Assembly (NCBI GenBank): GCA_036172245.1
Contig: JAYWIR010000001.1
Coordinates: 12,028,001 to 12,092,000 of the forward strand
DNA: 64,000 nucleotides
Source of the DNA: Raillietiella orientalis
Taxonomy: Eukaryota
Direction of reading: 5' to 3'
The position numbers and the translations under genes were made by a program. Below the pieces are notes generated by a model. That model ran no database searches. It saw nothing but the letters and a program-made list of their open reading frames with translations, and was not told where the DNA came from. Each line of letters opens with the position of its first letter. The stretch's first letter is position 1. This document shows positions 20,841 through 50,645 of this stretch, one piece after another.

Positions 20841-20959
20841 GTCTACGGCCATACCACGTTGAAAGCACCGCCTCTCGTCTGATCGGCGAAGTTAAGCAGC
20901 GTCGGGCCCGGTTAGTACTTGGATGGGAGACCGCCTGGGAACCCCGGGTGCTGTAGACA
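20841..20959 (+). rRNA. 5S rRNA: 5S rRNA gene (single copy here)
   Basis: GTCTACGGCCATACCACGTTGAAAGCACCG...GAAGTTAAGCAGCG (box A)...GTTAGTACTTGGATGGGAGACCGCCTGGGAA (box C)...GCTGTAGAC. The ends are complementary (GTCTAC/GTAGAC). A TTTT Pol III terminator follows at 20963-20966. Confidence 0.97.
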
Positions 20960-23419
20960 TCATTTTGCCGAAGCAGCTCGTTTTGCATCCCGGCAGAGGA
21001 GGCTCGTGGAAGCATCCGTGGAGAAGAAAGAAATCCTTGCCAAGAGAACCGGGGCGTGGTCTCTGACTTGCATCCTCTGCTTGCGCGTCCTGGCCCGAAG
21101 GGGTGGCTCTTTGCAGAAAATGGACCCCTGGCTGTCCGAAAAGCTGTTCTCAGCGGAAATGCCGGCTTCTCTGTGATAGGATTCAGGTCTTCCTCTTATG
21201 TCTGCACTTCGGTTGTTTGCTGCTGTGCACCGTAACTTTAAAATTTCCCGGTTTCCGCTCTCCCTTTTCGTCCTTTCCAGTTCAGGTCGTATCGCTCCTA
21301 CAGTTTTCATTTTGCGTCTTGTCTGCTGCTGGAATTCAGCTATTTCTTTCCCCCCCCCCGTGCTTTCTGATGCGACTGAATTTACGTTAGCAATTTCATC
21401 GGTGGGGTTCAATCTCGCGTTTCACCTGCTTGCCGTGCAGCTTGGAAACATCCCTACCCGTCTTTGTTCTGTCTTATTTTGCAGGTTATTTACTGGAGCC
21501 CAGCACACGAAAACACCGCGGTCTTTTTTGCTGGACTAAATCCGAGTCCAAAGGTCTTTTGAACCCTTCTCTTGAATGGACTCTGTGAGTGCTTTCTCAA
21601 GTCCTCCTGTGTTCTGTTTGTTAAATCTTTATCCTAAGACTTCTTGTGCGAGGATTACTGTGATTTAGGTGAAAATAATAACTGCACATTCGACCAAGAG
21701 GCTCAACTGTTGGACCAGAAGAACGGGTGATTCTGTAACTAGCTCGGAATTCATTGTCTGCTTCGTGCTTTATGAGGGGTGATTTTAGTCAAATGACACT
21801 ATAGTCGTCTACAATCGAAGCAATTTTGCACATGGAAAGCATCATTCTGACCCAAGTTGCTTATTTCTGAAGGTCCTGATATCATTCAAAATTAGATTTG
21901 ATGCTTATTTACACCTCCCTCTAAGAACCAGACGGACAAACAGATGGTGCTGTTTTTTTGGTTCGTTTTCTCCAAGTGTCCAGTTTTGAAGATCACTTGT
22001 CTAGAATTGGTCTAGTGCTTCCAGTTTTCAATCAGTCGTCTTCCTGGTCAAATACTGGATTACTGCTATCCTTAGAGAGGAAGTAATTAAGCGTTTCGTA
22101 TTCTTATCTCTTAAAAGCACAACTCACTATGGTCGATCCGGCTCAATTTTCTCCAATATTGGAATCAAATGATATAAAGAACATTATTATAAAATGATGG
22201 CATTTTGTACTCTTAAATTCTGTAACTAATGTTTTTTCTTTTCTAGGAAAAATTTGCTAGTCTACTTGATTTCAGAAAGAAACGTAGGTGAAGCAGAACT
22301 GGTAACATGTACGTTATCTTTGGAATATGGTTTCTCCATGGATGTTTTTTTTTTTTTTTTTAAAAAAAAGTTTACTTTCACTGATATTCCACTTTGGATA
22401 TCACTTCATCCTCATTCGTGGATGAATCACATTCAGAATGAGCGGCCTGGGATCCGGATGGCTAAATTTCACCGCTTTTCCTGGTGCACAAAAAAAATCA
22501 TTTTGAACATTAAGCTTTTGCAATACTTACTTACATAACGAGTGCATTGCATTACATAATGAGTGCTGCCAAATGTCTCCTGACTTGATTCGCTCTTGCA
22601 TGTTTTTTCACGTCAAGTCAAATTTGGTTTGCCGAAGCAATTTTGCAAATTGCTCGTAAGCACGGTACAACTCAGGCTGAATGGAAAAGTGAATAACGAA
22701 ATGTTTCGTAATGTGTTTTTTTGGAGGTGAATCCAACAGAACACAAATGCTTTGGCTTTTCAGACTGCAATTCTCATTGTGATTACGAAGCGCTCGTGTG
22801 ATTTTTCTTTGTGGATTTTGATAACAGAATTTTGACACTACAGGACCAAGTCAATCATTTGACACAAGGATGTACACACGAATGCCGTCTTCGGCTTTTC
22901 TGGTTGCAGAAATGTGACATGTTCTATACGGGTCATAAATTTGTTACGAGGGGAGCCCCTTGGGTTCAAGGGTTATTGGTAAACGCTTGCCAAAAAACGA
23001 ATTTGTATGCCACTTGTCGCGGTTTCGGACTCCAAGGGAAAAAAATTAGTATCATTTCTGATCAAAGAGGGTTGTCATGCGTAGTCACAAATGATTTTTT
23101 TTTTTCTTTCTTCAACTTGATGTGTTATACAATCTACATAAAGCCAAACCCATTTGCCCAGTGTATGATTTAGCAAAATGATTTTATTGTATGACCTTTA
23201 AATTTCATTTTTCCTTCACATTTCTAACATAAAGCCCATGCACTGTATGCTTTGCGTTTAGCATGGTAGCGTAGATATATACAAGTGCAAGTGAATAGGG
23301 GTTACTTTATTGGGAAGTAGTCTTTGTGTTTAGCATTTTTAAAGATATATAAAATATATGAATAAAACTAATGTCTTGATTGTTTTCAAACACAGGTATG
23401 CTAATTTTATTATCACAAA

Positions 23420-26400
23420 ATGAAAGCATGCATTTGGAATACTTGCATTTGCCTATGCATTTTGGTGTTTTATTACCCAATCCATGCAACTATTGGAGAG
23501 GCCCAGATTGATGAAAAAATCAAGAATATGCACAAAGTTTACACTATCAATATACTTCTGTACACAATGCTGTTAACATTGATGGTTTTGACTATATGGA
23601 TATTCAAACACAGAACATTATATTTTCTTCATGAAACAGGCCTGGCCATCATATATGGTAGGGTTTACTTATTGGTTACATATGGCATTTATGTTATTAG
23701 GATTGATCATTGGAGCAGTTTTGCATTATGGGACAGAGAATGCTGAAATTACTCATTTGACTGTAACATCTGCGGAATCTGATAATTATAATGATTTAGC
23801 ACCTCCAGATACTTTATGGATTTCATTACCTCATAGGTCATTTTCTGAAGAACAAAATAAAACATATGCATATAGTTTTCAAGGAGAGGTTATTGATGTT
23901 ACAACAAATGAAATTGAGCAAAAGGTATTGATGCTTTTGGTGCTAGTGATGCTGTAATTGCATTTTTCTTCACAATGAGTGAGTTTTCATTTTAGGCTAC
24001 ATTTAATCCAGAGATCTTTTTTGATATTGCTCTGCCACTTATAATATTTAATGCTGGATATAGCATGAAACGAGTAAGTAAATTTAAAACCAAGCTTTAT
24101 ATCATCCAAATTTTTTAGAAACATTTCTTTACAAATCTTGGCACAATTATGACTTTTGCATTTTTGGGGACAGCTGTATCTGCAATTGCTACTGGGTAAG
24201 AGAATTCTTGCAATCATTTTCTTGCATCACAATTGTTATGGCTCCCCCCTCTTTTTCCCTCTACCCTACTTTAAGAACAAAAAACTTGCTTGTTGCATTA
24301 AATTTTGAAAAAGATTCATGGGAATTGACTCACTTTTTTTTTTTTTTTGTTATCATAGGACCATTGTGTATGGCTTTGTGCAGCTATTGTCCCTCGAATT
24401 TAGTTTTGCTGATTGTTTCTACTTTGGCAGTCTGATCTCTGCCACTGATCCTGTCACAGTTTTAGCTATTTTCAATGACCTTCATGTGGATGTTGACTTG
24501 TTTGCTTTGGTTTTTGGTGAAAGCATACTGAATGATGCTGTTGCCATTGTATTAATTAGGTAGGAATGAAAGTGATTATGGAATCAATCTTCCTTGGATA
24601 GCACTATCCAGAACTACGAGCAGTTACATGGATTTCAGAGCACCACATTTGAAAGCAGAGCTTTCATGTTTGCTGTACTGCATTTTATTTGGATTTTCTC
24701 ATCTTCTTTCCTGCTTGGATGCATCATGGGATGCTGTACTTCTTTGATATCCTTTAGATCTTCATTCTTTTTAGTGTATTCCTTAATGTTTTTATCTGAT
24801 GAAATTTACCAAATTGAAGGATTTCCCACTTTTAGAGTCCAGTCTATTCTTTTTGATGTCTTATAGCACATTCCTAATTGCTGAAGCTGCTGATTTAACT
24901 GGTATTGTAGCACTCCTGTTCTGTGGCATGTGCCAGGCTCACTACACCTACAATAATTTGTCACTTGTTTGCCGCCATTACACTAAGGCCCTTTTTGAAT
25001 TGCTCAACTTTCTGGCTGAGAATTTTGTCTTTTGCTACTTAGGCGTGTCTATCTTCACATTCCCCCGACATCATTGGGATGCTGGATTCATTTTTGCTGC
25101 ATTGGTATCTGCCTTCTCCGTTTTTCATTTATAATTTTTTTTGCCAGCTAGCTACAATTGTAGGACGTGCTTTGAATATATATCCACTGAGCTGGTTGCT
25201 TAATGTGGGGCGCAAGAAGGCATTGCCCTTTAATTACCAACACATGCTGTTTTTTGCGGGTAGATTATGCAAAGAAATAATTATGTGATAGTGTGATAGG
25301 ACTTAGAGGAGCAATGGCATTTGCCTTGGCTATTCGCAACACAGTGTTTGTGGCTAGAGAAGCAATACTAACTGCTACTTCTATTATTATCATTATTTCT
25401 GTGATTGGGTGTGGTGGAGCCACACCACAGCTGTTGCATTTTCTACGAATACCGTGAGTAGATATTAGATTTCAGCTTGTTGTACAGCTCATATATTCAG
25501 AATTGGTATTGTTGAAGAAGGAGATCCCAGAATGCAAGATGGATATAATCAGGTGAATCAGATGCTGGTTAGCTACATGAAAGTTGATTTTGGGGATCTT
25601 TGGTTTTCAAGGAATCAGGCTAATCTATTATGCAGATTGTTTGTCATTTTTCGTAATACAATTTTGTTTGCTAAAGATGTTTCGTTTTCTCATTACCTTT
25701 TTTTTGTCATACCAACTCTGTTGGCATCCTAATGTTCTTTCCTTGCCAGGGATTTGCTACATCTTATGGCACAATGGTTGATTCCCATGGCTCTAATCAG
25801 GTAGGGTTATCACCACAAGAAATACGTGGTACTTATAATGAAAGTGCTGATTTTGTTCAAAATAGTATTTATAAGTTCCCTAGTTATATTGTCCTTTAGA
25901 TTTCAGAGGAATGGATTGGACATTCAGCTGAATCAGTTGCAGACACCACTTCATCTCCATCCAGTAGCCACAAGTCTCGTTTAGCACAGTTGTGGAGCAA
26001 TTTTGATACTCTGTACATGAAGCCTCTATTAACCCACAGCCGCCCTACCTTGATGGACACTCTGCCTTACTGTTGCAATTGTTTGGCTCGCATGCTGACC
26101 AGTACCCAACAGTTGACACAGGTGAGTCGGAGGAAAAACACAGTCTCTCTTACAAGTATGACATTTCCATCAAAGTATCCTCACCCAGAGTTGGATCAAC
26201 ACAGAGGTGCCTCTCAGTTGCAACCTGCAAATGCTTTCCCGGTCAGTAAAAGCATTCACATGTTTGTAATTGTATTTTTCAAAATCGTGTATGATTGCAG
26301 ATCTCATTTTCAAACTTGATAGTTTACCTTGCGTTAGTTTGAATTGAATGGAAGCATTAAACAGTGTATGCATGCTAGTGCAGGATACAGTGTTTTTTCT

Positions 26401-26476: not shown

Positions 26477-27533
26477 CATGTCCACAGCATAGGAAATGCA
26501 GGAGTCATGTGTAAGTGCATGACACAGTGCCGGAATGACTGTTGATTTTGATATTTATCCTTATTTTGGCTAAACTGGCATCACAGTTTGCTTCAGAATT
26601 CTACTGCTGTTTTATTCTTGGTTCATTTTGTGAATTTTAGGCATACTGCATTTCTTGTAGGGTATCACATTCTTCTGCAAAGATTTGGAGGAGTGTGGCA
26701 AAGTAGTCTATGTGAAAGTCATCTAAAATAATGTATCTGTTGCCAGTGATGAAAATTAGTTGCAATTCCACTTAGCAGCAAGCCTGATGTTAATGAAACG
26801 GAAGTTTATGATAAAAGTACGCTCTTGATATTCAAAAAGGCGTTCATAGCTTCAGTCTCTTAAGTAAGCCATAACTGGACAAACAAAACGCCGAAAAAAA
26901 AAAAAAAAGTTTTGATGAGATTGGTGATTAAATTCTTTAATGAACAAAGCATGACGTTTTCCGCTCCAGTTTTTACTTCTACACATGTACTTTTCAATTT
27001 TTTAACCTTAATTGCTATCATGTGTTTCCTCAGAATCGTATGTATTCCACGTTTACGGGATCAAGATGCCTCGTGGAATTTGGCTTGAATACGAGCGTGC
27101 GCGCATGTGGCGAGGCGTAAAAAATCCGTACATAGTACTTTAAAACGATTGCAAATAGTATCGGAGTCAGCCTTGCATGTTAAGGTTGCAATCACAGAAC
27201 ACTTGCTTATCACTCCTTCAAGAATGCAAACGGGGGCATGGTTACCTATCCATCTACTAGAAAACAAAAACACTTGTACTTTATTTGCCAGGGTGCACAG
27301 TGCAGGAAGGGTCACCTGCAGATCTATTTTGAGCAGCCAGATTCTCCGGGACAAGATATTTGAAGAACAAATAAATTTCCACTTTCTGACTAAAGCAAAA
27401 AAGAATGTAAACTACAACAGAAATTAAGAATTTGGTTGAATAATATTCTTCTGGGGCTTTAGAACTATTTACTATCAGATCCAGTGAGGATCTGACAGTC
27501 TATACAGTCCAATCTCATCAGTCCAAATTTGGA

Positions 27534-28608
27534 TCAGTATAGGGCATTCTTCCAAGAGACCTTCATTCCCCTAAGATACGGGAAAAATTTCGATTCCCTC
27601 AAAATATTTGAGGAACGACATTCGTCTTTCATTTGGATTCCAGAGAGAAGAACGTTGATGGGGAATACTTTCCATCTGTCAACGGAAAGTTTGGTGTAGT
27701 CGGCGTCCCAATTGGCAAATCCTGTCACGTGGGGAGTGTTGAAAAATTTGTTGGAACCTTTGATATTTGGGATCCACAATAATTCCATTCTTGGTGGATT
27801 CGATGAATCCATATTGTACGGTTTCTTGATTATCTCTGGTGAAGTCGATAATGACTATTGGCTCGCCGTTTTAGATGTGTACGGCGTCCGCTTTTCTGTA
27901 GGAAGTCAAGTAGATGGCTTCCCGTTCGATGAAAAGGTGTTTGGCAGTTGTAATCTTGCTGCTGTTTCCATGTAGGTCTATGTACCAGTAAATGTTGCAT
28001 GGATGAGGTGGTTGGCGAAGAATGTCGAACAGTTGAAGTTGCCATTGTGGTAGTTGCAGTCCTAGAAGTGGATCTTTGACGCGTGATGTACGTTGGAAAC
28101 GGATGCATTCCCTTATGAAATTGTTTTTGGCGTAGAATTTAGTGTGGTTTTCCAAAATCGACTTTTCAGACTTGCATTCTTTTATCAAGTTCATTATCTG
28201 GAATGCGTTAGGTTAGGTTAGGTTAGGTAAGTATGGTTTATTTTTTTTTTGGTATACCTCGGATTCGTAGGAGTCTTGGTGGTCGTTTAGAGCCCCAAAG
28301 TCCAAGGTGCAGTGTCATCTTTGGTGCAGTACTGGATGTTGCTGGTAGCCCTGCCTTTGGCGTGTTCAAGATGCGCTTCTTGGAAGGGTGATGTTTTGAG
28401 TTGCTGTATTGTTCTTAGATGATGGAGTTGGAAGTACATCTGGATGTGTGGTGTTCCTTGTTCGCCCTTTTCCTTTGCTGCTACGGCAAAGTTTGCTTCT
28501 AATCGTAGCCATCGTTTTATTTGCTTGTATTCCTCTTCGCTGTAGTTAACTGTAGCACACCAGTTTTGTTTTTTGTAGGGAATTTTTAGTAGCACTTGTA
28601 GCAGTCAT
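27534..28608 (-). pseudogene. rep: Endogenous CRESS-DNA virus Rep (HUH endonuclease plus SF3 helicase), decayed and intron-split
   Basis: RCR motif I WCATVN, motif II TPHIQMY, motif III QYCTK (28287-28595). Helicase: IYWYIDLHGNSSKIT (degenerate Walker A), IVIIDF (Walker B), YGFIESTKNGIIVDPKY, PHVTGFAN (motif C) and LSVDRW (Arg finger). Several frameshifts and an in-frame stop at about 27871. Confidence 0.92.
28198..28257 (-). other. Putative spliceosomal intron inside the viral rep, containing (CCTAA)4
   Basis: Minus strand reads GAG|GTATACC-A10-TAAACCATACTTA-CCTAACCTAACCTAACCTAAC-GCATTCCAG|ATAATG. It is 60 nt, has an in-frame TAA if retained, and lies between the endonuclease and helicase domains. 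Confidence 0.7.
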
Positions 28609-28673
28609 AATACAGCTTGGTAAGACTGCTATCAATGTGGATGGAATGCTGGCAGTATATGTGCTCTGATACC

Positions 28674-28703
28674 CAGCGGCTGGTTAGTATTACTCAGCCG
28701 CTG
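28674..28703 (+). promoter_or_regulatory. CRESS-DNA virus rolling-circle origin: stem-loop with nonanucleotide TAGTATTAC
   Basis: CAGCGGCTG (28674-28682), then GT-TAGTATTAC-T, then CAGCCGCTG (28695-28703). This is a perfect 9-bp stem with the canonical circovirus/nanovirus nonamer at 28685-28693, about 65 bp upstream of rep. Confidence 0.92.
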
Positions 28704-30008
28704 TGTCAGCAGTGGATTGGCTGGTGAGTCAAGTAGTACCAGCTGGCCCTTATCGGATAACGGTAAGATGTAGTTGGTGTGGGAAAGGGTTGACCTGGAT
28801 TGTAATGGAAAGAGGGGTTTACTAATGGTTGGTGTTGGCAATTGTAATCAGTAGGTTCTCAACTAGGCTGAAGGCAGGAGGATATGTCGGTTGTCTCTCG
28901 GAAGCGTTTCATTATTCGTTGTTTGTTCCACCAGTTTTTGTAGACTGCTGTAAGCAAATTCTCTCTAAATAATTATTCTTTTTACAATTATAAATTCTAA
29001 CCACAACTACTAAGGTCCAAAGGCTCTGTAAGTTCAAGTGTAAGAGACCTGATTTTTTGTACTGAATTTAAAGTGGACCACCATCTTCTAATTGGATCAT
29101 TTTTCAATGCATTCAATAGAAGGGTTACGAAATATCAATTATTCATGTGTGTCTGCTGAACTAGGCAGCTTATTTAATGGAATTGGCAATTCAATGAAGA
29201 AACCTTGATTACTCATCAAATTACTAAAACTACTTTTTGTATCATGTAGCACTTTGCTGGGAGCTCCAAGTCACTGATGAAATATCAGCCACATGGTAGC
29301 ATTCTAACGTCAAACAATTTATTGAAATATAAGAGATGGTCATCAGCCAAATTATCGATAGATGATAAAAAAAACAAAAACAAATGAATGTTTCCTTCGT
29401 GTCTGCTGGCAACCCCAATTCTGTCTTCATTGTCAGCCGGTAGTCATTTGTCGTAGAAGAAATCTTCCCAACGACATCTGCAATTCATGATTCGTAGTTT
29501 TAAGACTCCAAATTGAATTTTCTAATGTGTGTGCGCGCGTTTTTTCAAAAAGCAAACTCTTTATTAAAATTGTTGAGAAAAGAATGCCCACATTTTATGG
29601 TTTTAGAATCAGTCGCTGAAAGTTTAATTAGCGTCCCTAGTTTTCCCTCAAGTTTATCCATGATGGCAGCAGATCACTCTTGAGAACTGCTTTCCTTTCG
29701 CTTGTAGCGCAGAACTTTCAACAGTGAAAGCTTTGCACTATAAGACCGTTTGCTATATGAAACCATAACTGAACTGATAGAAACTATTGATTCTCTGACT
29801 TCATTGTGCCAACAGCACACCTGGCTTGAAATCTCTACCCAGGCCAGTGTGCTGTTTGTCTTTATATAATGCAGAACATTTCACCACACACCGCGCATCT
29901 ATGCCTGTTTCGTGCCTGCATTCTCTTTCAGCGGAAGCGGTTTCTTTAAGGTCGAGACGGGAGAAGAGCTTTCCTTGCTTCCAATTCCACCGCCACAACT
30001 GCACTCTT

Positions 30009-33000
30009 TTCCCCAAGTTCCACAAGAGGTGGGATGAATTTATGTTCTTTGATCATTTACTCAAGGTATTCATGCATTTGTTTTCTCCAATTATTTCACT
30101 TATATCTCCTGGGATTATCACTGAGGTTCACTACACTTGGGGAACTGGGCGCCGTCTATGCCTAGACGTTGTCCTCAGTCCTTCTCAGGATATGTCGGTA
30201 GTTCCAGGCCTGTACTCTTCCACAGTTTCTTATGCCGATGTCCTTCTGGATAAGTCCTTTCAGGATTTCCATTGGAGATACGGCGGTCCTGGTGGTCTTC
30301 ATCTTCCACCACCGCACATGGATGGCGGTGATGAAGAGGGCGATGGTCATCCTTACCATGGGATTGTAACAAGGAACGTTCCCATTTCCTTGGAACATGC
30401 CTGCTAAAATCCCCATGGTCTATGTGGTGGGCAGCCCGTTTACCCTTTTGAGGGTGTGCCACTCTGCAGCAAGAGTGGCACACTCTTGTTGCATAGTGGG
30501 ACAAGTGAAGACGTGGAGTCTTGTATCCTTGTCTTCACATGCTTTACTGCCCTCATCTTCTCTTCTTCCCGTGAAACGCTTCATGGTTGTCCCGCATACG
30601 ATTCCTCCATAATAAAACATCAAGAGGTTATCCTGTGTATCCGGTGACAACTCACTCTTCCAGAGCGTCGTTCCGATCGCCAACAGGTTTATCCCGCACT
30701 CCCGTGGCGATCGGCGGCTACTTGGAGGGCACTGGTGTCTTTGTCCTCTTCGAGTATTAGTCAGCATAAGTTTCTCTTTGTCACCCTAGACCACACGAAG
30801 TTGTTGTGGTTTTTCTACACTTCGCGGGTCCTGTGGGTGAATCTTCCAGCTATCCTGTCGATGTATCGGAGTACTCGGGAGTGGTGAAGGTACTCTCCTC
30901 GTCTCCATGCTTCAGCTGCTTGCAAGGTAACCCCGGACCGCTGGTGGACCCAGTCCTCCGTATCCGGAGGAACCGGGAGCACCCACGGGATCACCAGGAT
31001 GGATTTCTCCTGTCAGAGTTCCTTGCTCCTTGGTATGATCTTCAGCAGGTGCTTGTGTACCAGCTGTTGCTTTCGTCTCCAGGTTGGCTCGATGGTCCCC
31101 CATTTACCCACTCGGCCGAGCAGCGCAGTCATCAGTCCTCTCGAGTTATTTATCAACAGCGAATAAGCCCTGTACGCTGCATACGGCCAGTCTTCCCAGT
31201 TTGCTGACATGCCCAGGAGTTGTCGCACGTCCATGTTGTCCACAGCGTGTGCAAGCGGCTTCATCCCGGTACCGCCTTCCTTCTTAGGACGACACAATGG
31301 TTTGAGGCGGACTCTCGGTCGATAGCCTCTCCAGAGGGTTTTCCTCTGTAGCTTTGCTACCTCTTTTCTCATGTCTTGATGCATTCTGCAGAAGGCTGTT
31401 CCGATGAGTATCTTTGGAAGGAGTACTCCGTTCCAAAGCTTGGCCCTCCGTTTCATGCTAAAGTCCAAACGGGTATACTTCTCTCCTTCTTGCCTGTTTT
31501 CCCAAGATTCCCTTCCACAATAGTTGAGACAATGAAGTGTCATCAATGGGACACCCAGGTACTTGGCACTGTCCACCGTTCGGAATCCTTCCTCCATGAG
31601 TATAGAGATCCAGGATCCCGAGGGCAAAAGTTGGCTTTTCTTGGCGTTGATTTTTAAACCCAATCATTCTTCCATAAGCTCCAGCACGTCCAGAAACGCA
31701 CGTTGATCTCTCTCCCCTTTCACGAAGAAGAGAAGATCATCCGCGTAAGCCAGATGGGTTAGCCGTTGATTATCGACAGTGATTCCTCGAAGGTGCGCAC
31801 TTCTCTCGGTGAATGATGAGAGGGTCTCCATGTATATGACAAACAGCATCGGACTGAGAGCGTCGCCTTGGCGGAGTCCTCGTTCCATGCGGATGGCTGC
31901 TGTCTTCCCTATTTATCTTGATCTGAAAGTGTTGCCCTTCAAGTATCATCTTCACAAAGTTGCAGAATTGTTACGGAAGACCCAGTCATACTAGAATCTT
32001 CAGCAGCATCCAATGGTTCACCGTATTGAAAGCTTTCTCCATGTCAGTAAAACCCAGTACCAAGTTCTTGCCGATATATCGGCTGAGTCCAGTGGTAGTT
32101 TAGACACACTTGACCGACATGTGGCGTCTGGGCACCGCACACGTCTGGACCGGAGAGATCAGCTTCAGCAAAGCCGCGCCTAAGAGGTTGGCCCAAATCT
32201 TCTCCAAGCACTTGGCATCCGCATTCAGAATGGAGATAGGCTTCCATTGGGTAACCTTGGTCAGGTCACCTCCTTTCGGCAACAATCTCATCCTGCTCTC
32301 GTAAAAGGATGCAGGTAGACGTCCTTCTTGTCGGATGCAGAGTCAGCTGGTGGAACAAATGCAAGTACCGTTGATAGTAAGAGATGGGAACACTATCAGG
32401 GCCAGCCGTTACATCCATGCGAAGTTCCACAAACGCAGCTTTCAATTCTTCGGATATTTCCTCTTCAAACATCTTCCGATGGTTTTCACACGTTCGTCTT
32501 TCCAGGTGTCGCAGAAAAATTCCTTGATTAGTCGGGCACAGATGTCTTCGTCGGAAGGCGTGCGCGATGTCTCTGGAAGGCGTGCGCGATGTTTTCCGAC
32601 GTGTGCCGACTGTGGCCATTATACTGGATGCAAAAGATGTCTGTTGCCAGATTCTTCTTCCCCAGCACGCCGACTTTCCCTTTTACATTTTGGAAGACGT
32701 ACCGACTCTCGTATTGTTCCGGGAAGACACCGAAAAGATCTCTGAAGCCTCGTGGATTTTTCCTCGGACTCTGCACTGACTTCAAGACCTTCTTGCCTGC
32801 TTTGCAAAACATCTGCCTGCCGCTGGGTTACCAGCCTGCTGGGTCGCCGGCTCGCCCATGCTGTTTGTCCAACACGAGTGGCGACGGATACGATCCAAGC
32901 CCGAGAGCGATTGCGCCGGTCTCCTCGGGCACTTGCTGGATTTCCTGGAGCGTGCTGCCGCCTTCTGGAAACAGGAAGAAGGGGTGGAGTGGGGCACTGC

Positions 33001-38399: not shown

Positions 38400-41300
38400 T
38401 TGAAGACGGTTCTTGCTGTTGCCGCGTTATGGCGTTCGACTGCGTGGACCAGGAACTCCTGCTGGAGCTCCTGGGTCTCATGGGATTCCCACCCTCCCTA
38501 CTCTCCTACTCCCTGCGCTCCTGCTGGCGGAAAGCGCTGATCAACGTCTCCTTCAGTGGACAAGTAGCGGCTTGCCGGTACGGCGGGGGATAAGGCAGGG
38601 AGATAGCCTCAGTCCCCTGCTCTTTAGCACCTAGTTCGAGTTGGTGCTGAGAGCGTACAGGGAGACTTTGGCTGCCCTGCCGAGCTCGTGCCCCGGCACG
38701 CCTGCTGTAGCAGCTTATGCCGACGATCTTCTGCTCCTGTTGACCATGTCCACCCCGGCAGCGTCAGTAGGAGATTTCTTCGATCTGCTTAGCCGTGGGA
38801 CCGGACTGCAGGTTAACAGGGCGAAGTCGTCGGTGGTGGCGGTTGGTGCGACGTGGGCAGGACGGCCTGACTGGATCCGCTTGGGGATCCCCACGGGCAG
38901 GTACTTGAAGTACCTTGGCGTTCCGTTGGGGGACTTCTGCCCGTCAGAAGCCTGGTCAGTTCGTCTCCAGAAAGTAGAGCGGGCGATCGGACCATTCCTG
39001 GAAGGCAAGTTCCTCTTGCGGGAACGGGCCGCGATATGGAACGCGTTCGCGGCCCCCCTCCTCCGCCCCCTGCTTTTTGTTTGCCCCGTTCCCCTCCTGT
39101 TGAAAAAGAGGATAAAGGACCTCCTAAGAATTGCCATTTGGTGCTAAGGGAGGCCTCGTGTGGCTCTGGAGGATTTGTGCGCTCCACGTCGGGACGGAGG
39201 TCTTAGCGTCCTGACGCTGGAGCGCGTGGAAACACAGCTGTGGTGGCGTACCCTAGCCATCGCGGCGAAGATGTGGAGCATCCTTTGGTGCGTGCCGCTT
39301 CAGTTTCGATTCCGGACTCTCATTCCTGCGGCGGAATTGTGGGACATGCCTTGGTGCGCCCAAGCAAGGCTCATGGCGCAACGAGCCTCACGACTCGGCG
39401 GAGTTTCGTCGTTTCTGGCGACGCGCTACGGCAGGCTCACCCAATGCGGGCATCAGCTGCGTCGAATGGTCGTTGCAGTTCGAGAGAACGCATGGATCTC
39501 CTACGTATCCGGGAACTACTCCGCTTGGCTGCGGGAGTCAGTATCCACGTGGGAAAAGATCCATGTCCCGAGCGACACAAGAAACAGTTGCCTGAGAAGG
39601 CAAGCTCGCTGGACGCTGCAGGAGATCGTGCAATCCCCAGACAAGCTTCTGTGGGCTCAGACTACCCCCTTTGCCCCAGTGCTGCCCTTCCTGGTGTACT
39701 GTAGGGACAGCAACGAGCAGGGAAGTTGGAAAGTGTCCTGTATCGTGGACGGCAGGACCTGACTGCTTAAGGCGTAGACGTCTCGGCAGCTAGAGTACGC
39801 TGCGACCTTGATTGTCCCGCCCAATGGACTCTTACGTTAGAACGAACTACTCGCCATACCTCCGGAGGAGCTGAAGTGGTCTGCCCCCAGAGTCTTGGAA
39901 AAGTGGCTCCCTTCCCATGAAGTGGCAGGAAATGGCATTACTCGGTTTGCATTGGGGTCTCCCCTGCAAAACATGCCTCACCTACTGGACTCGTGGGAGT
40001 ATGGATGCCCTTTGTGCACGGTGTGGAATGTTTTCATCCGGGTAAGCCGGGGCTTTTATTATTTTAAAAAACAAAATTACAATTTATAATTGCAGTCGAT
40101 TGATTTTTCATTGTTTTTGTGTTCCTCTTGGAACACTTTTTCGTATTGTTTTGCACTTGTTTACCGACTTGAGTGCCGGTAAGGCCTACTCCACTCGCGA
40201 AGGGGACGGGAAAAAGGAAAAAAAAATACAAACTCCCCCCCAAAAAACGCCTGGGGGACATTGTTTATGGGGAAGGGAAGGGATCACTGTTCACTGAGTG
40301 AAGACCTCTGCATCTGGTTCCGGAAGCTAACAAGTGCTGGCAGAATTTTCCTCAGCCGGCGCCAACGGGAAGCCTTCTCCATGGAGATCACCGCCCAGTG
40401 GATGGCATTCCGACTGCTGTGGCCTCTTATCGACACGTTCCACTTGTCCAGTATTCCTCGTATGCAGCAGAGAACTGCTACACACGCAGCACCTGGCAGG
40501 GAGTTCCGCGTCAAGAGGCGACGAAAAATGTTTTTAGGGTCGCCCACCGCTACGTTTATGGCCGACGAGAGTCTATCCCACGTTCGGCGGAGGGCAACAT
40601 ATTCGATGAGTAAGTGGGAGAAGGTCTCCCTTTCCCCACACTCTGTACAATGGGCATCCAGTCTCCCCAATGTCCAATGAGACAGGCGGGCTCTGCTCAA
40701 AAGTCCCCAATGGAGCACAAGCAGCGCCGTCTCCTGCCAATCCAAAGGGAGGGTGCCACTGTCCCAATACGCCGGGGGCCACTTCTCCTCCGGAGGCATG
40801 CCGAGAAGCTCGCCCCAGCGCACAATTCCATTTGGCGGGACACTCGGGGTTGTAGCGTCCGCTAGTTCCCGGGACGTCCACGCCTTCATTGGTTTTTTCC
40901 TGCCTCCGATGAGGCAGGACACTTCGTAACAAGCCTCCTCTTGGTTGTCCCTGGCTTCTTTAAGGGAGGGCAGCACAAGGGCAATGGGGTGAATGCTGCC
41001 CACAAAAGCTTTTGTGGGTTGGATACGATCTCCCGCAGGGGCTGGCCAGCGTTCCTGCCTCGACGAAGGCAGGAACGCTGGCCGTTGATTTTTGCCCACG
41101 CGGAAACGGACTCCTGGAGCCAGGTAGTCCAGTTTGCGGGGCTGCACGGCGTGGAATGAGGGAGACCTTCCCCAACCATATTGTGGACTGCATCGCCCTC
41201 CGTCCCCTCTGGGATCGTCTTGCTACGATCCTGAACATTGGCCGAGGCACCCAGGGACATTTTCCGGCGACCATTCTCGCGAGCCTCCTTGCCCCCGGCC

Positions 41301-42789: not shown

Positions 42790-45700
42790 AGCGGCGAAAG
42801 CACACAACACACACCAACAAAATCCTTTCTTCTGACGGAGTGCAATCTAGCTTGGCTTGAAGTGATAATTGTTTTTGCTCTCTAGAGTGAGCACGTATCG
42901 TTTGTGCTACTCGTCTACGGCGCGAGAGCGATAGAATTTTGAGGTTTTCATGCTCAGGAATTGACATGGAGCGCGTCACATTATTATCCTCAAAGTTCCA
43001 TGTTATGGATAGATGCTACGTTGCTTCCCGTAATGCGGATCAAATCTTGCGGGGATCACCACTTGGGTGGTCTAGAGGGGACGTGGCTCATCCATTGAGG
43101 TATGGCGCAAGCAGGAGTAAGTCGGGTGGGGAGTGAGCCTTTCTACGTACAGCATCGGAAGGGGTAGAGATGGTGGGATCGGTCACATGGGGATCCAGGC
43201 ATGTTAATAGCTTAAATACAGTTAGCTATCATGGTTCGTGCTTCTTCGACGATGAGCAGTATCCCAAGTCATCCATCACGGACACTCCCGTATAAGTATT
43301 CGTTAGATGAGCCTTGAGTAAGAGAAAGAATAGCTTGCTAGAACGCATAACGTATTATTTTGTCGATCTTTGCCCAAGACGATAAGGGTTTCGTACCGAG
43401 GCGTAAGTCGTGTACTAAAGATGGCAGGAAAAAGGTTTTAATTGCATCTAGTTTCTGCCAAGGAGCTAACGAGGAGTCTGCACTAATTTGGAAGCGTGTA
43501 ATGAACTTATCCACGTTTATGTCATATATGAGGGGGTCAAAACCAATCGCTTTCCATAGCTAGTTATATCTTTCTTGGAGGGAAAGGCACGGAATTGCTG
43601 CACCATTCACAGACAGCGATGTATTTTGCACATGCGGTTGGGAGGCTACGTAGTGATACGAGCCGCATTTATTAGGGTTGATTTGTAAGTTTGCAGCAAG
43701 GGTTGCACCTGCAAGTGTGGTGACGGTAAGTTGTAGCTAGTCTATGGAGCTTGCTATGAGCGCAACATCATCTGCATATGCAAGTGGAATGATAGAGGGG
43801 TGGTGGTGGTTCAGGATTTTAATAGAGGACTCAAGCGCGATGTCAAATAATAGACCATTCAGGAAGCATCCATGGGGTACTCGAGAACGAATTGGAATTG
43901 GATAGGTAGGTCCATCCGAGGTTACAATTGTTGCTGTAGATTCCGAATACATTTCAGATATGCTACCATGAAATTGATGACCAGCTCCTAGTAAGGTCAA
44001 CGTGTCCAGGATGAGCTGGTAGGGGATGCAGAAAAACGCGTCTTTAAAATCTATCCACGTGATGGCAATGTCATTGTGGAAGACCCGGGAGCGCTCGAGT
44101 AGAGTGGTCAGCAAAAAGTTTTTTTCTAAAACACCTTCATGAGGAAGAAATCCTTTCTGATGATGTTCAAGGATCCTATTGTTGAGGATCCACGTTCGCA
44201 ACCCTTTCGCGAGGATTTTACAGAACAGTTTGCCAACGGTGTTGGAAATGGCGAAGGGGCGGAATTGCGTTACGTCTGTAGGATCAGATGCTCCCGATTT
44301 TGGTATTAGAACTGCAGGTGAACTCTTGCAGTCATTAGGAATTTGCAAGTAGTGGATACAAACATTGTAAAGGGCGGCGAGACAAGATCCGTCTGAATCA
44401 TCTTTTAGGAGAAAGGAGTAGGGGATTCCATCATTTCCAGGGGCAGTATCCTGAGCCTTTCCGTAATGTGAACACAACATCCTGAGGGGTAATGTTGGTG
44501 CAATTAACTTCCCAAGAAGCTGGAGTTGGGCTCTGTGAAGAATGTCAGTATTAATATTCTTCGTAAAGAATTTCTCACTAAAATGGTTTCAACTGTCGAT
44601 AGAGAGCCGTTGAATCGGATGGGATGGGGGTGCAGAAGAGTGCGGATGGCTCGCTTTCTGTTACGTCGATACAAGGTTTGGAGGTGTTTTGTTGAGGTTA
44701 GGCGAAAAGCATTGCAGGAAGCAGTAGGTCTCCTAGAAGGGTTGAAGGGGCGTATGTTGAACGTAGGAGTCATCGTATTCATGACTTTGTTGAGGATGTC
44801 AATGGTACGTTGCAAATTGTCGTTAGACTTTGGTTGTGTGAGGAGAGATGTGAGAATCAAGGTGTGAGCACCGAAGATAGAACGTGTGTTTGTGTGTAGT
44901 ATATGCTGAAAGTTTGGCAATAACTATTGTGCTTCAGGGTTACTCGATGCGCGTTCGCTGGTTGAGAGCACAGGATACGGAGGAGTTAGATGTATGAGTG
45001 GCGCGTCCTGTTGTGAAGTTCGGGAAACAGGGGAGTGTGATGGTACTCTTGGAGGTTCAGAGGCTGTCAAAACAGTTTTCTGTTGGTAAGGGATCCTTCA
45101 TTTCTAGGGCTATAGGTGTGACGGGTTCGTGTGCTGCTATTGCAGCAAAACGGTTGAATGTGGGTATCGAAGGAGGAGCACGTGATGTAGGAAGTGGTTT
45201 CTTGCGTTGATTTTGCGGTCGCATGTAGCATCGAGTATGATTGTGTAATCCACGCATTGAGGGTAAAGTGGCTTTACAGTTGGAAATGCTACATTGGAAG
45301 GAAAGGAGTGCCACGGGAAGCTGCGGGGGAGCGATGTGTTTAAAGCAAGGGTGGTGGTGTGTAGGATAGGAGACATCGGAGTTGCATCTCCTACAGAGCA
45401 ACTTGTGCTTGCAAAATGTAGCTTGTGTGCAGTGGATAAGTGGCGTTTGAGAGACCGAAGCGTGTTGAGAGTTTGTGTTCTCCAGGGACAGGAAGGTATT
45501 ATGCAGCTTAGGGTACGGGATACAGGAAATCGCACTAAAAAGACGTGTTGTTAGATGTAAGAGTTACATCGTTCTTGGCTATAGGCAAAAGTAGAATGTC
45601 CGTGAGTGGGGGATAGTAGGGCGGGAAGTAAGGGGTGAGGGCACAATAGAGGTAGAAGGGCTCGATCGAGGGGTGGGGTTTTTACACACTGACGATGAGA

Positions 45701-47562: not shown

Positions 47563-50500
47563 TTTTTCACCCGGGTGAGCCGGGGCTTTTATTATTAAAA
47601 ATTTGTACATTGAAAAAATTCTATAATAAAGTCTTTCTTTTTAAAAGATGTTTTTCTCTTTTAGGTTGTACCGAAGTTTTGGATGCCCTGTGGCACTTGT
47701 CCTTACCGACCCGCAGGCCGATAAGGTCCTCCACACTGGCGCAGGGGCGGGAAAAAGAAAAAGAAAACAAAAAAAACAATAACACCTGGGGTGGCAATGT
47801 TCTTTGGGCGGGGGGGGGGAAGGGAGGGAATCACGGTACGCCGTGAGGAGGCCTCTGCATCCGGTTACGGATGCGAGCAAGTGCCGGCAAATGTTTTTTG
47901 AGTTGGCGCCAACGGCAGGCCTTCTCCAAGGAGATGGCTGCCCAGTGGATGGCATTCCGACTGGTATGGTCTCTCCTTGATGCGTTCCACTTGTCCAGGA
48001 TTCAGCGTATGCAACAGAGCACTGCTACACACCCGGAGGCTGGCAAGGGGTCCCGCGTCAGGAGGCGTCTTAATAAGTTCTTGGGGTCGCCCACCGGAAT
48101 GTTCAGGATCGACGAGAGTCGGTTCCACATCTCACGGAGGGCAACACACTCGATGATTAAGTGGGGGAAGGTCTCTCTTTCTCCGCACTCTGTACAATTA
48201 GCATCCACATTCGCCGGCGGATGACCTAGAGTGGCCCCCGTTGTTCAAAGACTTTTCCACCCTCCCCCTCAAGTGGCAGGAAACGGCGCTGTTGTTGCAC
48301 TGGGGTCTTCCCTGCAACGCGCGCCGTCACCACTGGACGTTGGGGAACGTCGGAGAGAACTGTGCAGTGTGCGGGGAGAAGGAATCCCTCCCCCATCTGT
48401 TAGTGGACTGTGCTGCCCTCCGGCCCTTGTGGGAACGTTATGCTACGACCCTCCCTATGCCGGTCGGCAGTACCCCCAAAGACGTTGTGAGACTCCTCTT
48501 CGTGAGAGACGCCCTGCCACCAGCCTCAACTCTGGCAGCGCTCTGCTGCCTCCGAGGGATTGTGGCCGCCTGGAGCGCAGCCAACAGAGGAAGCAGCAAC
48601 AGGGACCCCATCGTACACGCGGGTCGCTACATGCGAATCGCGATCGGCTAGTCCCATCTGGGAGCTATGACGAGGGACCTCGAGGGCATCCTGGAAAGGA
48701 TAGTCCCCTCCTCCAGCGGGCTGTGATCCCTTCCCGGCCCTCCAAATAGTTTCTTTTTGTTATTTCATTTATTTTTCTTTTTGTTTTACCCCCTATCCCC
48801 TCCGCTGCCGAGGAGGACAAGCTGGCCTTAGAAACAGCTTCCTGGCAGGTCCCATGAAATATTGGCCGTAGCGGGGCCTAGTACCGCAAATGTAAAGTGT
48901 TTTTTAATAAACGCCCCGTCGTGACCGGGTGAAAACTCCCCGATGTCCAGTGAGACAGGCGTGCTCTGCTTAAAAGCCCCCAATGGAGCAGAAGCAACGC
49001 CGTCTCCTGCTACTGCAGGGGAAGGGTGCCGTTGTCCCATGACTCTGAGGGCCACTTCACCTCCTCCGGAGGTATGTCGTGCAGCGCGCTCCAGCGTAAA
49101 AGTCCGTTCGGCGGGACACTCGGGGTACTAGCGTCCGCTAGTTCCCGGGACGTCCACGCCTTCAAAAGTTTTTTCCTGCCTCCGATGAGGCAGGACACTT
49201 CCCACGATGCCTCCTGCTGGCTGTCCTGAACTTCCCTGAGGGAGGGCAGCACGGGGGCAAGGGGGGTGAAAGAAGCCCACAGAAGTTTTCGTGGGCTGCA
49301 AATGATCTCCTGCAGTGGCTGACCAGCGTGCCTGCCTCTACGGAGGCAGGAGAAGTCCTCATTGCTGAAGCCGTTGATTTTATTCCATGCGGAAACGGAC
49401 TCCTGGAGTCAGGTAGTCCAGTCCGCAGGGATGCAGGAGATCCATGGATTGTCTCTCAACCAAGTCCCGCAGCTGAAACCCACAGTGGTTCAGGCTGCGG
49501 TCGTTGGCTACTAGGATTGAGGTCAATCCTTGGCAGCCGGTCGCCCTGTGAGCGAGGAGTCTTGAAGGTGCACACCAGGGTGCGGTCCAATACTTTGCCA
49601 CAAGGGCAAGTTTTCGGAATTGGAGCTGGCGCTCCATGCGCTCCAACGTCAGGAGACCAAGTCCACCGTCCCTGCGTGGAGCGCACAAGTCTTTAAGCCG
49701 GACGCGGGGCCTGTGATTGCCCCAGAGGGCTTTTCTGATGAGGCCCCTTGTCCTTTTCCGAATTTGGGGAGGAGTGGGGTACACAAAAAGTAGGGGGCGA
49801 GGGAAGGTGGCCGCGAAAGCGTTCCACACTGCGGCCCGTTCCTGTAAGTAAAACTTGCCGTCCCGGAACGGGCCGATCGCCAACTCCACCTTTTGGAGAC
49901 GGTCGGACCAGGCTTCTGCAGCGCAGAAGTCCCCCAACGGAACGCCAAGGTACTTGATGTACCTGCCCGTGGGGATCCCCACGTGGATCCAGTCCCACCG
50001 TCCGACCCGCGTCGAGTCCGTGAAGAGCAACAACGACTTCGTCCTGTTTACCTCGAGGCCCGTCCCACGTTGCAGCAACTCGAAGAAATCCTCGAGCGCC
50101 AATGCCGGGGTGGACCCGGAAAGCAGGAGCAGAAGGTCGTCGGCATAGGCCGACACGGCAGGCGTGCCGGGACACGAGCAAGGCAGGGTTGCCAAAGTCT
50201 TCCTGTATGCTCTCAGCACCAACTCAAAGTAGATGCTGAAGAGCAGGGGGCTGAGGCAGTCACCCTGCCTGATGCCGCGACGAACCGGCACGCCGTACAC
50301 GTGCCGGCCGCTGAAATTAATGTTTATGAACGTGAAGCGCCAGCAGGAGCGCAGGTAGGCCAGGAAGACGGCCGGAAATCCCATGCGTTCCAGGAGCTCC
50401 AGGAGGAGCTCCTGGTCGACGCAGTCGAAAGCTTTACTCAAATCGACTGCGACCGCAAGGGCTTCGGGCGCCGCATCTCCTTCCCGGCTTCCTTCCCCCC

Positions 50501-50645
50501 GGTTAGTGGAGAGTCCAGAACTCTCCCGACCAAGCTGAGCCTCGCGTTGTTGCAACTGCCAGAATGTGCTGGCGAGGAACAGGTTGGCCTCAATGGTTCG
50601 CCCGGGGACAGTGTAAGTCTGTTCCGGACTGACCACGGATTCCAC
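47563..50645 (-). mobile_element. L1/Tx1-like (family 2) copy C with nested antisense copy D (about 48225-48935, +)
   Basis: 421-aa RT ORF 49380-50645 (VDLSKAFD, GIRQGDCLSPLLF, AYADD). Copy C is interrupted just upstream of its zinc finger (CTECGERETFPHL resumes at about 48208) by plus-strand copy D (CAVCGEKESLPHL). Confidence 0.85.

What the first reader, a model, noticed from the sequence alone, without database searches (positions are those of the whole stretch)
27534..28703. Endogenous CRESS-DNA virus: Rep plus its own replication origin integrated next to a host NHE gene
Seen in sequence: all three HUH/RCR motifs (WCATVN, PHIQMY, YCTK), SF3 helicase motifs (GNSSKIT, IVIIDF, GFAN, DRW) and an adjacent TAGTATTAC hairpin. 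Established: this combination defines Cressdnaviricota Reps. The YG..E..KNG...KY and LS.DRW signatures recall nanovirus/alphasatellite, smacovirus and redondovirus-type Reps rather than geminivirus Reps. Inference: this is a fossil of an ssDNA virus lineage that infected the germline of this invertebrate. It could assign a host to an otherwise host-less environmental CRESS group. Stops and frameshifts indicate a pseudogene.
Basis: partly seen in the sequence, partly recalled or inferred. Interest (0 to 1): 0.88.

Follow-up and report, generated by a model that had tools for sequence, protein, structure and literature searches.

The report
Fossil CRESS virus Rep with origin
A broken copy of the replication gene of a small circular single-stranded DNA virus, still next to its replication-origin hairpin, sits in an animal chromosome just downstream of a sodium/hydrogen exchanger gene; such viral fossils are a known kind, and this one comes from a poorly sampled virus lineage.

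Summary
On the minus strand of 27534-28608 lies a CRESS-DNA-virus Rep. It has HUH motifs I-III (Pfam Viral_Rep, E 2.1e-12) and an SF3-type helicase half (2048 hits at E<=1e-3, best 1.7e-25). Sixty-six bases upstream of its ATG, on the plus strand, a perfect 9-bp stem carries TAGTATTAC in a 12-nt loop.

The gene is dead. It has three frame breaks, one in-frame TAA, and changes at invariant P-loop positions. A 60-nt GT..AG segment (28198-28257) is absent from homologues (closer fit in 24 of 26 when removed). It is probably a viral intron. Related viral genomes have short introns in the same linker (8 of 80), and host introns here are 40-71 nt.

No capsid gene was detected. About 1.3 kb looks virus-derived. 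The nearest Reps are uncultured CRESS viruses at 30-43% identity. The tree gives a long, weakly placed branch.

The flanks are animal DNA: an NHE6/7/9-type gene, 75-78% identical to arthropod orthologues, and retroelement debris. Read-level junction proof is lacking.

Verdict: an ordinary endogenous viral element, a new member of a known kind, of modest interest.

The parts
28674..28703 (+). Origin-type stem-loop. The 9-bp arms are at 28674-28682 and 28695-28703. The 12-nt loop holds the nonanucleotide TAGTATTAC (28685-28693). It lies on the strand opposite to Rep, 66 nt upstream of the Rep ATG.
   Evidence: I1. The same kind of hairpin is found in 61 of 68 related viral contigs. The opposite-strand, 5'-of-Rep layout is found in 12 of those 61.
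28606..28608 (-). The only upstream ATG. Its frame closes at 28546-28548 and differs from the motif I frame, so there is a frame break between 28563 and 28606.
   Evidence: read from the sequence.
28290..28604 (-). HUH endonuclease domain piece. Motif I WCATVN is at 28545-28562, motif II PHIQMY at 28434-28451 and motif III YCTK at 28320-28331.
   Evidence: Pfam PF02407 at E 2.1e-12. PDB Rep nuclease domains at E 1.3e-8 to 3.1e-6. tblastn of homologues.
28258..28314 (-). Linker piece in a second frame (..LDFGALNDHQDSYESE). The frame break after motif III lies within 28290-28314.
28198..28257 (-). A 60-nt GT..AG segment, probably a viral spliceosomal intron. It holds (CCTAA)4, which reads as (TTAGG)4 at 28208-28227 on the plus strand. 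That gives four CTAAC branch-point-like motifs. It also holds an A10 run and one in-frame TAA.
   Evidence: homologue spacing is closer in 24 of 26 when it is removed. Host introns are 40-71 nt. Related viruses have introns in the same linker.
27874..28197 (-). Linker plus the first part of the SF3 helicase. The P-loop region GNSSKIT is at 27949-27969.
   Evidence: Two positions that are invariant in 20 of 20 homologues differ here.
27871..27873 (-). In-frame TAA stop between Walker A and Walker B.
27682..27870 (-). Helicase piece with Walker B IVIIDF (27841-27858) and YG..E..KNG.....KY. A frame break follows at about 27755-27768.
27534..27779 (-). Helicase end in a third frame. Motif C GFAN is at 27711-27722, LSVDRW ends at 27672, and the stop is at 27534-27536.
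28704..28930 (.). A stretch beyond the hairpin with the same raised G+C and G>C skew as the Rep block. It is probably viral intergenic DNA. No coding signal was found. It holds an 11-nt near-repeat (28678-28688 / 28719-28729).
   Evidence: The right boundary is inferred from composition only.
23417..26241 (+). Host NHE6/7/9-type sodium/hydrogen exchanger gene (context only). Its last aligned exon ends about 1.3 kb before the Rep stop. Its introns are 40-71 nt.

Best explanation
This is an endogenous viral element. [quoted passage not shown] The animal is probably an arthropod. The host is inferred.

The piece carries the whole Rep gene, its upstream origin hairpin and about 230 nt beyond it. 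No recognisable capsid gene is present.

The piece keeps non-transcribed origin DNA and an unspliced intron-like segment, and it has no poly(A) tail. Integration was therefore at the DNA level (illegitimate recombination), not by retroposition of an mRNA. This step is inferred.

The gene has since decayed. It has three frame breaks, one in-frame stop and changed invariant P-loop positions, so it can make no Rep. With a single origin copy it cannot be released by rolling-circle replication. It has no shown function today.

The donor belonged to a large, unclassified, mostly aquatic or metagenomic clade of Cressdnaviricota. That clade has TAGTATTAC or CAGTATTAC origins and a KNG..KY / FAN..DRW-type helicase. 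Within it, the element is a long isolated branch.
For: Domain identity:
- The nuclease piece hits Pfam Viral_Rep (E 2.1e-12) and solved Rep nuclease domains.
- The helicase piece gives 2048 hits at E<=1e-3, best 1.7e-25.
- Of 8 top hits scanned, 7 carry PF02407 plus PF00910 at E<=0.01. PF00910 reaches its curated cut-off in 5 of them.
- These hits sit on 1.6-3.9 kb contigs.

Conservation: all four pieces match 80 IMG/VR viral loci at 32-43% identity. By my reading of the table, 35 of 46 strongly conserved columns are kept. The script's strict count was 28, because two pieces overlap.

Origin: the hairpin is described. Of 68 related contigs of <=3600 nt, 61 have the same kind of hairpin, and 27 of those 61 have a 9-bp stem. 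The window's layout occurs in 12 of the 61.

Decay.

Host context:
- NHE exons with GT..AG introns lie upstream. One exon is 75-78% identical to arthropod NHE6/7/9.
- A 5S rRNA gene and many reverse-transcriptase ORFs lie on the same 64-kb sequence.
- In some searches, Rep-like HSPs fall only in 27500-28650. The exception is 2 weak HSPs at E 0.004 elsewhere.
- Contigs of run X1 lie on both flanks (151-mers with 0-1 differences) and on Rep 27613-28416. That run may be the assembly's own sample.

Boundaries: the block is compositionally distinct from about 27600 to 28930.

Tree: the element lies inside a 68-row clade with SH-aLRT 99.
Against: No listed read or contig bridges either junction, and the single run found may not be independent. 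No whole genome is held, so other copies and orthologous loci were not checked.

The window's helicase pieces match no Pfam family at E<=1 and no solved structure. Their identity therefore rests on homologues.

No capsid remnant was found. The right boundary is inferred from composition only.

The tree placement is weak. The sister is P0194 at SH-aLRT 89, no starred small clade holds the element, and its end branch is 1.23 against a median of 0.55. No named family references were included in the tree.

The host lineage rests on one exon search, of which only the top 120 of 2691 hits were seen.
Confidence: 0.88

Rival explanations
1. The 60-nt GT..AG segment is not a viral intron. On this view it is a post-integration insertion or microsatellite growth (a telomere-like TTAGG run plus an A/T run) that happens to end in GT and AG.
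For: (TTAGG)4 is the only such run in the window (chance expectation 0.01). None of the 80 related viral loci has it. The segment length is a multiple of 3. The nearest relatives lack an insert at this exact place. The introns of the 8 related viruses lie about 8 codons upstream (my reading) and form a separate clade. There are no RNA data.
Against: Only 3 GT..AG pairs of 32-101 nt exist in 28170-28300. This is the one that restores homologue spacing. Its length lies within the host intron range of 40-71 nt. The CCTAA repeats give four CTAAC branch-point-like motifs 11-26 nt before the AG (my reading). Spliced Reps are known in this clade (8 of 80) and in marine invertebrate CRESS viruses (PMC4498126, passage read).
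Confidence: 0.35
2. Assembly artefact: reads of an exogenous or contaminating CRESS virus were joined to host DNA by mistake.
For: No junction-spanning record was listed. CRESS viruses are common contaminants of invertebrate samples (general knowledge).
Against: A replicating virus would not carry three frame breaks, an in-frame stop and a changed P-loop. Only about half a genome is present, without a capsid gene. The piece lies 27 kb and 35 kb from the ends of the window.
Confidence: 0.04
3. The relic is retained because it is transcribed as a small-RNA (piRNA-type) template against related viruses, as proposed for many arthropod viral fossils. It borders a 25-kb stretch of retroelement debris.
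For: Many reverse-transcriptase fragments in both orientations lie from 30 to 55 kb. Literature on arthropod viral fossils and small RNAs appeared in the listing (abstracts only).
Against: Decay of the reading frame neither supports nor excludes it.
Confidence: 0.12
4. A non-viral rolling-circle element (Helitron-type transposon or plasmid-derived Rep) rather than a virus.
For: HUH Reps also occur in transposons and plasmids (general knowledge).
Against: The helicase half is SF3-type by homology to PF00910-bearing Reps. The NANTATTAC stem-loop next to Rep is the CRESS virus origin seen in 61 of 68 relatives. The relatives are 2-3.4 kb contigs with a second large ORF.
Confidence: 0.03

Closest known systems
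CRESS-DNA-like endogenous viral elements of invertebrates. Examples are the 20 circovirus-like elements of the isopod Armadillidium vulgare (PMC4231630, passages read) and the cyclovirus-like elements of mites and a nematode (PMC6186406, passages read).
   Same: A Rep-derived sequence inside animal DNA, with stops and frame breaks, only distantly related to named families, and used as evidence of past infection.
   Different: This element keeps the origin hairpin and an intron-like segment beside a full-length Rep. I found no mention of stem-loops or nonanucleotides in PMC4231630 (term search, 0 occurrences). Its sequence is not close to anything retrieved here (<=43% identity).
Uncultured CRESS viruses of aquatic and invertebrate samples. 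These include IMG/VR contigs L001-L080, 'Hermit crab associated circular virus' (P0211), and entries named 'Cressdnaviricota sp.' and 'ssDNA virus sp.'.
   Same: The same Rep architecture and helicase signature. The same TAGTATTAC or CAGTATTAC hairpin with a 9-10-bp stem close to the 5' end of Rep.
   Different: Those are intact 2-3.4 kb circles with a second large ORF. Identity to the window's pieces is 32-43%. The window has no capsid ORF and is broken.
CRESS viruses with spliced Rep genes. These are 8 of the 80 related loci (L005, L012, L013, L015, L016, L027, L028, L039) and three marine invertebrate viruses reported in PMC4498126.
   Same: A short GT..AG intron in the linker between the nuclease and helicase domains.
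   Different: The 8 loci carry their intron about 8 codons upstream of the window's segment. They form their own clade (support 100) away from the element. Splicing of the window's segment is not shown.
Circovirus Rep. The solved structures hit include the 314-residue chain 7lar_A. That these are porcine circovirus 2 entries is recalled, not shown by the tool.
   Same: The nuclease domain aligns over about 87 residues with motifs I-III (E 3e-6 to 4e-7).
   Different: The helicase half gives no match to any solved chain at E<=1. Family membership was not tested with a reference phylogeny.
Whole CRESS genomes integrated in Entamoeba and Giardia and used to assign hosts (PMC7493932, abstract and passages read).
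   Same: The logic that an integrated Rep marks the host of a virus lineage.
   Different: There, exogenous viruses cluster tightly with the integrated copies. Here no close exogenous relative exists, so the host link applies only to a deep, loosely defined lineage.

Membership tests
Cressdnaviricota Rep (HUH endonuclease + SF3 helicase) | HUH/RCR motifs I, II and III in order in the N-terminal domain | tested here: met
   WCATVN, PHIQMY and YCTK are present. Pfam PF02407 scores 47.6 bits against a cut-off of 26. Solved Rep nuclease domains match at E down to 1.3e-8.
Cressdnaviricota Rep (HUH endonuclease + SF3 helicase) | C-terminal SF3 helicase with Walker A, Walker B, motif C and an arginine finger | tested here: inconclusive
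   Homology to helicase halves of Reps is strong (best E 1.7e-25; 7 of 8 top hits carry PF00910 at E<=0.01). Walker B, motif C and DRW are present. However, the P-loop differs at positions invariant in 20 of 20 homologues. The window's own pieces match no Pfam family at E<=1.
Cressdnaviricota genome | NANTATTAC nonanucleotide at the top of a stem-loop next to Rep | tested here: met
   TAGTATTAC lies in a 12-nt loop on a 9-bp stem, 66 nt upstream of the ATG. This matches 61 of 68 relatives.
Cressdnaviricota genome | Small circular genome that also encodes a capsid protein | tested here: not met
   The piece is linear within a 64-kb host sequence. No capsid-like hit appeared among the 25 best rows of 137 non-Rep ORFs from 68 relatives. 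No Pfam hit was found in flanking ORFs. Divergent capsids could escape this test.
Endogenous viral element | Viral sequence flanked on both sides by host sequence in one molecule | tested here: inconclusive
   This is met within the assembly. No read-level bridge was listed in the one run found, which may be the assembly's own sample.
Endogenous viral element | Loss of coding capacity or neutral decay | tested here: met
   Three frame breaks, one in-frame TAA and changed invariant residues.
Endogenous viral element | Vertical inheritance (orthologous locus in relatives, fixed in the species) | not testable with these tools
   No genome is held for this window.
Named CRESS families (Circoviridae, Nanoviridae/Alphasatellitidae, Smacoviridae, Redondoviridae, Geminiviridae) | Placement of Rep inside the family clade in a reference phylogeny | not tested
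   No named family references were available as sequences. The tree of 70 rows holds only uncultured relatives. Indirect evidence: no geminivirus Pfam family at E<=1. The nuclease half matches circovirus-type chains better (E about 1e-8 to 3e-6) than the chains at E 0.03. The helicase half matches none.
Spliced-Rep CRESS viruses | Spliceosomal intron in Rep, removed in mRNA | tested here: inconclusive
   GT..AG ends, spacing and length all fit. No RNA evidence is available.

The most novel reading that the evidence does not exclude
The donor virus was a true nuclear parasite of this animal lineage, and its Rep was spliced by the host. On this reading, the 60-nt segment is a viral intron tuned to a host whose own introns are only 40-71 nt. 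Its branch-point motifs are built from four copies of the pentamer that also forms arthropod telomeres. The fossil would then be the first host anchor for a deep, family-level CRESS lineage known otherwise only from water and sediment metagenomes.
Probability: 0.3. Interest if true: 0.5.

Novelty: new member of a known kind. Interest (0 to 1): 0.3.

Why it matters
Most CRESS-DNA viruses are known only as metagenomic circles without a host. An integrated copy shows that a virus of this broad clade once reached the germline of an arthropod-like animal.

The retained origin and unspliced intron-like segment show that integration was at the DNA level.

The practical value is limited. The element is dead, stands alone on a long branch, and has no close exogenous relative to which the host link could be transferred.

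Tried and rejected
**Searches that were blank or weak**
- Own-genome search: no genome is held.
- Scan of viral contigs with the nuclease piece alone: 11 pattern matches, none confirmed.
- Word-based protein search with that piece: only 2 hits among 50 candidates. Their helicase halves are unrelated to the window's.
- Pfam on the four helicase and linker pieces and on the stop-read-through piece: 0 families.
- Solved-structure search with the helicase piece: 0 hits.

**Capsid search**
- 213 ORFs from 68 related contigs were run by tblastn against the window. 76 were Rep-like.
- Among the 25 best rows of the other 137, the hits inside the element were a Rep N-terminal exon ORF (L012) and three hits on the opposite (plus) strand over the Rep region.
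- Pfam on 10 flanking ORFs gave only noise.

**Sequencing runs**
- One run was listed, with a small share (0.11). No RNA holder was listed.
- When laid, parts of the element and flanks were without cover, and no listed record bridged a junction. Only 8 of 30 records were shown, so the records over 27613-28416 and the loose end at 28242 could not be inspected.

**Other dead ends**
- Protein-atlas look-up of a retroelement ORF to narrow the host was uninformative.
- The bacterial promoter/terminator scan is irrelevant for a eukaryote.
- The 11-nt near-repeat beside the hairpin is a possible iteron, but as a two-copy match it is too weak to claim.
- Earlier findings of the scan held nothing relevant.

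**Errors in my own calls**
- In one search the short linker fragment was misplaced by the aligner, and the 'ATG frame' line was printed in the wrong frame. I rely for the start codon and for spacing.
- Multi-frame HSPs in 6 of 80 loci were contig-end effects or second copies, not introns.

Full report
**Observation**

Reading the minus strand of 27480-28760 and listing stop-to-stop frames shows a Rep gene in five pieces.
- Piece A (28290-28604) carries WCATVN, PHIQMY and YCTK.
- A short piece in a second frame (28258-28314) continues the linker.
- After a 60-nt segment (28198-28257), piece B (27874-28197) runs to an in-frame TAA (27871-27873). It holds the P-loop region GNSSKIT.
- Piece C (27682-27870, same frame as B) holds IVIIDF and YGFIESTKNGIIVDPKY.
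- Piece D (third frame, to the stop at 27534-27536) holds HVTGFAN and LSVDRW.

The only upstream ATG (28606-28608) is in a different frame from motif I.

On the plus strand, TAGTATTAC (28685-28693) occurs once in the window, against 0.17 expected. It sits in the 12-nt loop of a perfect 9-bp stem. The hairpin folds at -12.9 kcal/mol with z = -3.4.

**Is it a Rep?**
- Piece A matches Pfam Viral_Rep (PF02407) at E 2.1e-12 and 47.6 bits, against a cut-off of 26.
- Piece A also matches solved Rep nuclease domains at E 1.3e-8 to 3.1e-6. Two further chains match at E 0.03, and two are chance hits at E 0.45.
- The other pieces match no Pfam family at E<=1 and no solved chain.
- Pieces B+C, read with X at the stop (P0001), find 2048 proteins at E<=1e-3 and 279 at E<=1e-10 among 1.84 billion representatives. 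The best is E 1.7e-25, and local identity is 28-44%.
- Of 8 top hits scanned, 7 have PF02407 plus PF00910 at E<=0.01. PF00910 reaches its curated cut-off in 5 of them. The eighth (P0004) is an odd protein with two helicase-like stretches and no nuclease domain.
- The top hits lie on contigs of 1.6-3.9 kb.
- In an alignment with 27 homologues, the window's Walker B, KNG..KY, motif C and DRW line up.
- Of 46 columns where at least 18 of 20 homologues agree, the window keeps 35 by my reading of the table. The script's strict count was 28, because two pieces overlap. Eight columns differ, including two invariant positions in or before the P-loop, and three are not covered.

**Relatives and origin**

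A profile of 20 homologues (A1) found 289 relatives in IMG/VR, of which the best 80 were kept. The window's pieces are 32-43% identical to them. They are 30-39% identical to the best of 278 proteins.

Of 68 loci of <=3600 nt, 61 have a NANTATTAC hairpin. Among the 65 hairpins counted, TAGTATTAC occurs 46 times and CAGTATTAC 13 times. By position:
- In 42 loci it lies on the Rep strand near the 5' end of Rep.
- In 12 loci it lies on the opposite strand near the 5' end of Rep, as in the window.
- In 7 loci it lies near the 3' end of Rep.

Stems are 9 bp in 27 of the 61.

Named relatives in a further search (499 hits at E<=1e-10, 120 listed) were two 'Cressdnaviricota sp.', one 'ssDNA virus sp.' and 'Hermit crab associated circular virus'.

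A quick maximum-likelihood tree was built from 70 rows. The window was entered as one row with X at each break. The element falls inside the 68-row clade that excludes the two circovirus-like-helicase proteins P0002 and P0003 (SH-aLRT 99). Its end branch is 1.23, against a median of 0.55. Its sister is only weakly supported (P0194, 89), and no starred small clade holds it. No named family references were in the tree, so family assignment is open.

**The 60-nt segment**

On the Rep strand the segment begins GTATAC and ends TTCCAG. It holds an A10 run and (CCTAA)4, and it has one in-frame TAA.

The evidence that it is extra relative to homologues and looks like an intron:
- For 26 homologues with HSPs on both sides, the DNA between the HSPs exceeds the unaligned residues by a mean of 18.3 codons. 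After removing 60 nt the excess is 5.4 codons. The fit is closer in 24 of 26.
- Only 3 GT..AG pairs of 32-101 nt exist in 28170-28300. Two of them join the frames without a stop. This is the one that fits the spacing.
- The four CTAAC motifs lie 11-26 nt before the AG (my reading).
- Four host NHE introns that I read are 43, 71, 43 and 40 nt, all GT..AG.
- In 8 of 80 related viral loci, all 20 queries cross an in-frame stop at one place in the same linker. The printed DNA there shows GT..AG inserts of roughly 55-90 nt (my reading).
- Those eight lie about 8 codons upstream of the window's segment and fall within one 13-row clade (support 100) away from the element.
- Introns in Reps of three marine invertebrate CRESS viruses are reported in PMC4498126 (passage read).

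Against the intron reading:
- (TTAGG)4 is unique in the window (chance expectation 0.01) and absent from the 80 loci, so post-integration growth of a repeat is possible.
- There is no RNA evidence.

I put the intron reading at about 0.6.

**Extent and missing parts**

G+C (0.41-0.51) and G>C skew mark a block from about 27600 to about 28930. The flanks are at 0.31-0.36 G+C without skew. About 230 nt beyond the hairpin are therefore probably viral too.

No capsid remnant was found. About half of a typical 2-2.7 kb genome is present. Rep-like HSPs occur nowhere else in the window, apart from 2 weak HSPs at E 0.004.

**Host context**

Eight HSPs of arthropod NHE proteins cover 23417-26241 on the plus strand. 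One exon is 75-78% identical to NHE6/7/9 of many insects and two centipedes. In that search, 120 of 2691 hits were listed, and all named ones are arthropods.

A 5S rRNA gene lies at 20841-20959. From 30 to 55 kb there are many reverse-transcriptase ORFs.

One public run holds 151-mers that are identical or nearly identical to both flanks (0-1 differences each). It also has contigs on Rep 27613-28416. No listed record bridges a junction, and the run may be the assembly's own sample.

**Mechanism**

What is shown: a Rep plus origin of a CRESS virus, disabled, embedded in animal DNA in the assembly.

What is inferred:
- Germline integration was of the double-stranded replicative form, by illegitimate recombination. 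The origin, upstream region and unspliced segment are kept, and there is no poly(A) tail after the stop.
- Neutral decay followed.
- With one origin copy and no working Rep, the element cannot replicate.
- A small-RNA template role is possible but untested.

**Comparison and novelty**

CRESS-like endogenous elements are well documented:
- 20 circovirus-like elements in an isopod (PMC4231630).
- Elements in mites and a nematode (PMC6186406).
- Whole genomes in Entamoeba and Giardia, used for host assignment (PMC7493932).

This is a new member of that kind. It is notable for keeping its origin hairpin and a probable intron, and for its distance from every sampled Rep. Pieces and an X read-through were enough for the searches and the tree.

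Noticed in passing
window 20841-20959 (+): A full-length 5S rRNA match (111.2 bits, E 1.3e-23). It lies about 2.5 kb upstream of the NHE gene, within long ORF-like frames on both strands. I did not examine whether it is a gene, a dispersed copy or a 5S-derived repeat.
   Followed up: no
window 23417-26241 (+): The host NHE6/7/9-type gene has unusually short GT..AG introns. The four I read are 43, 71, 43 and 40 nt. This may help to narrow the host lineage.
   Followed up: partly
window 30000-55000: A G+C-richer stretch (0.46-0.61) packed with reverse-transcriptase and other retroelement ORF fragments in both orientations. Examples are 49380-50690 (-), 43737-44588 (-), 31013-31663 (-) and 38635-39147 (+). 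The viral fossil borders this debris field.
   Followed up: no
window 62400-64000: A very G+C-rich end of the window with long open frames on both strands (up to 401 aa) and low-complexity Arg/Ala/Pro-rich translations. Its nature is unknown.
   Followed up: no
L005, L012, L013, L015, L016, L027, L028, L039 (IMG/VR loci): Eight related uncultured CRESS virus genomes carry a short in-frame GT..AG intron with stop codons. It lies in the Rep linker just before the conserved GKRNDL-type motif. They form one well-supported clade, which implies eukaryotic hosts with short introns for that clade.
   Followed up: partly
protein P0004 / P0154 (354 aa, contigs 2.6-3.9 kb): The best helicase hit has two tandem copies of the Rep-type helicase region and no nuclease domain. 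One source labels it as a hypothetical protein of a Methylococcales metagenome bin. It may be a mis-binned or rearranged CRESS element.
   Followed up: no
window 28678-28688 and 28719-28729 (+): An 11-nt near-repeat (10 of 11 identical). One copy overlaps the 5' arm and loop of the origin hairpin, and the other lies 41 nt downstream. It is iteron-like but too short to call.
   Followed up: partly
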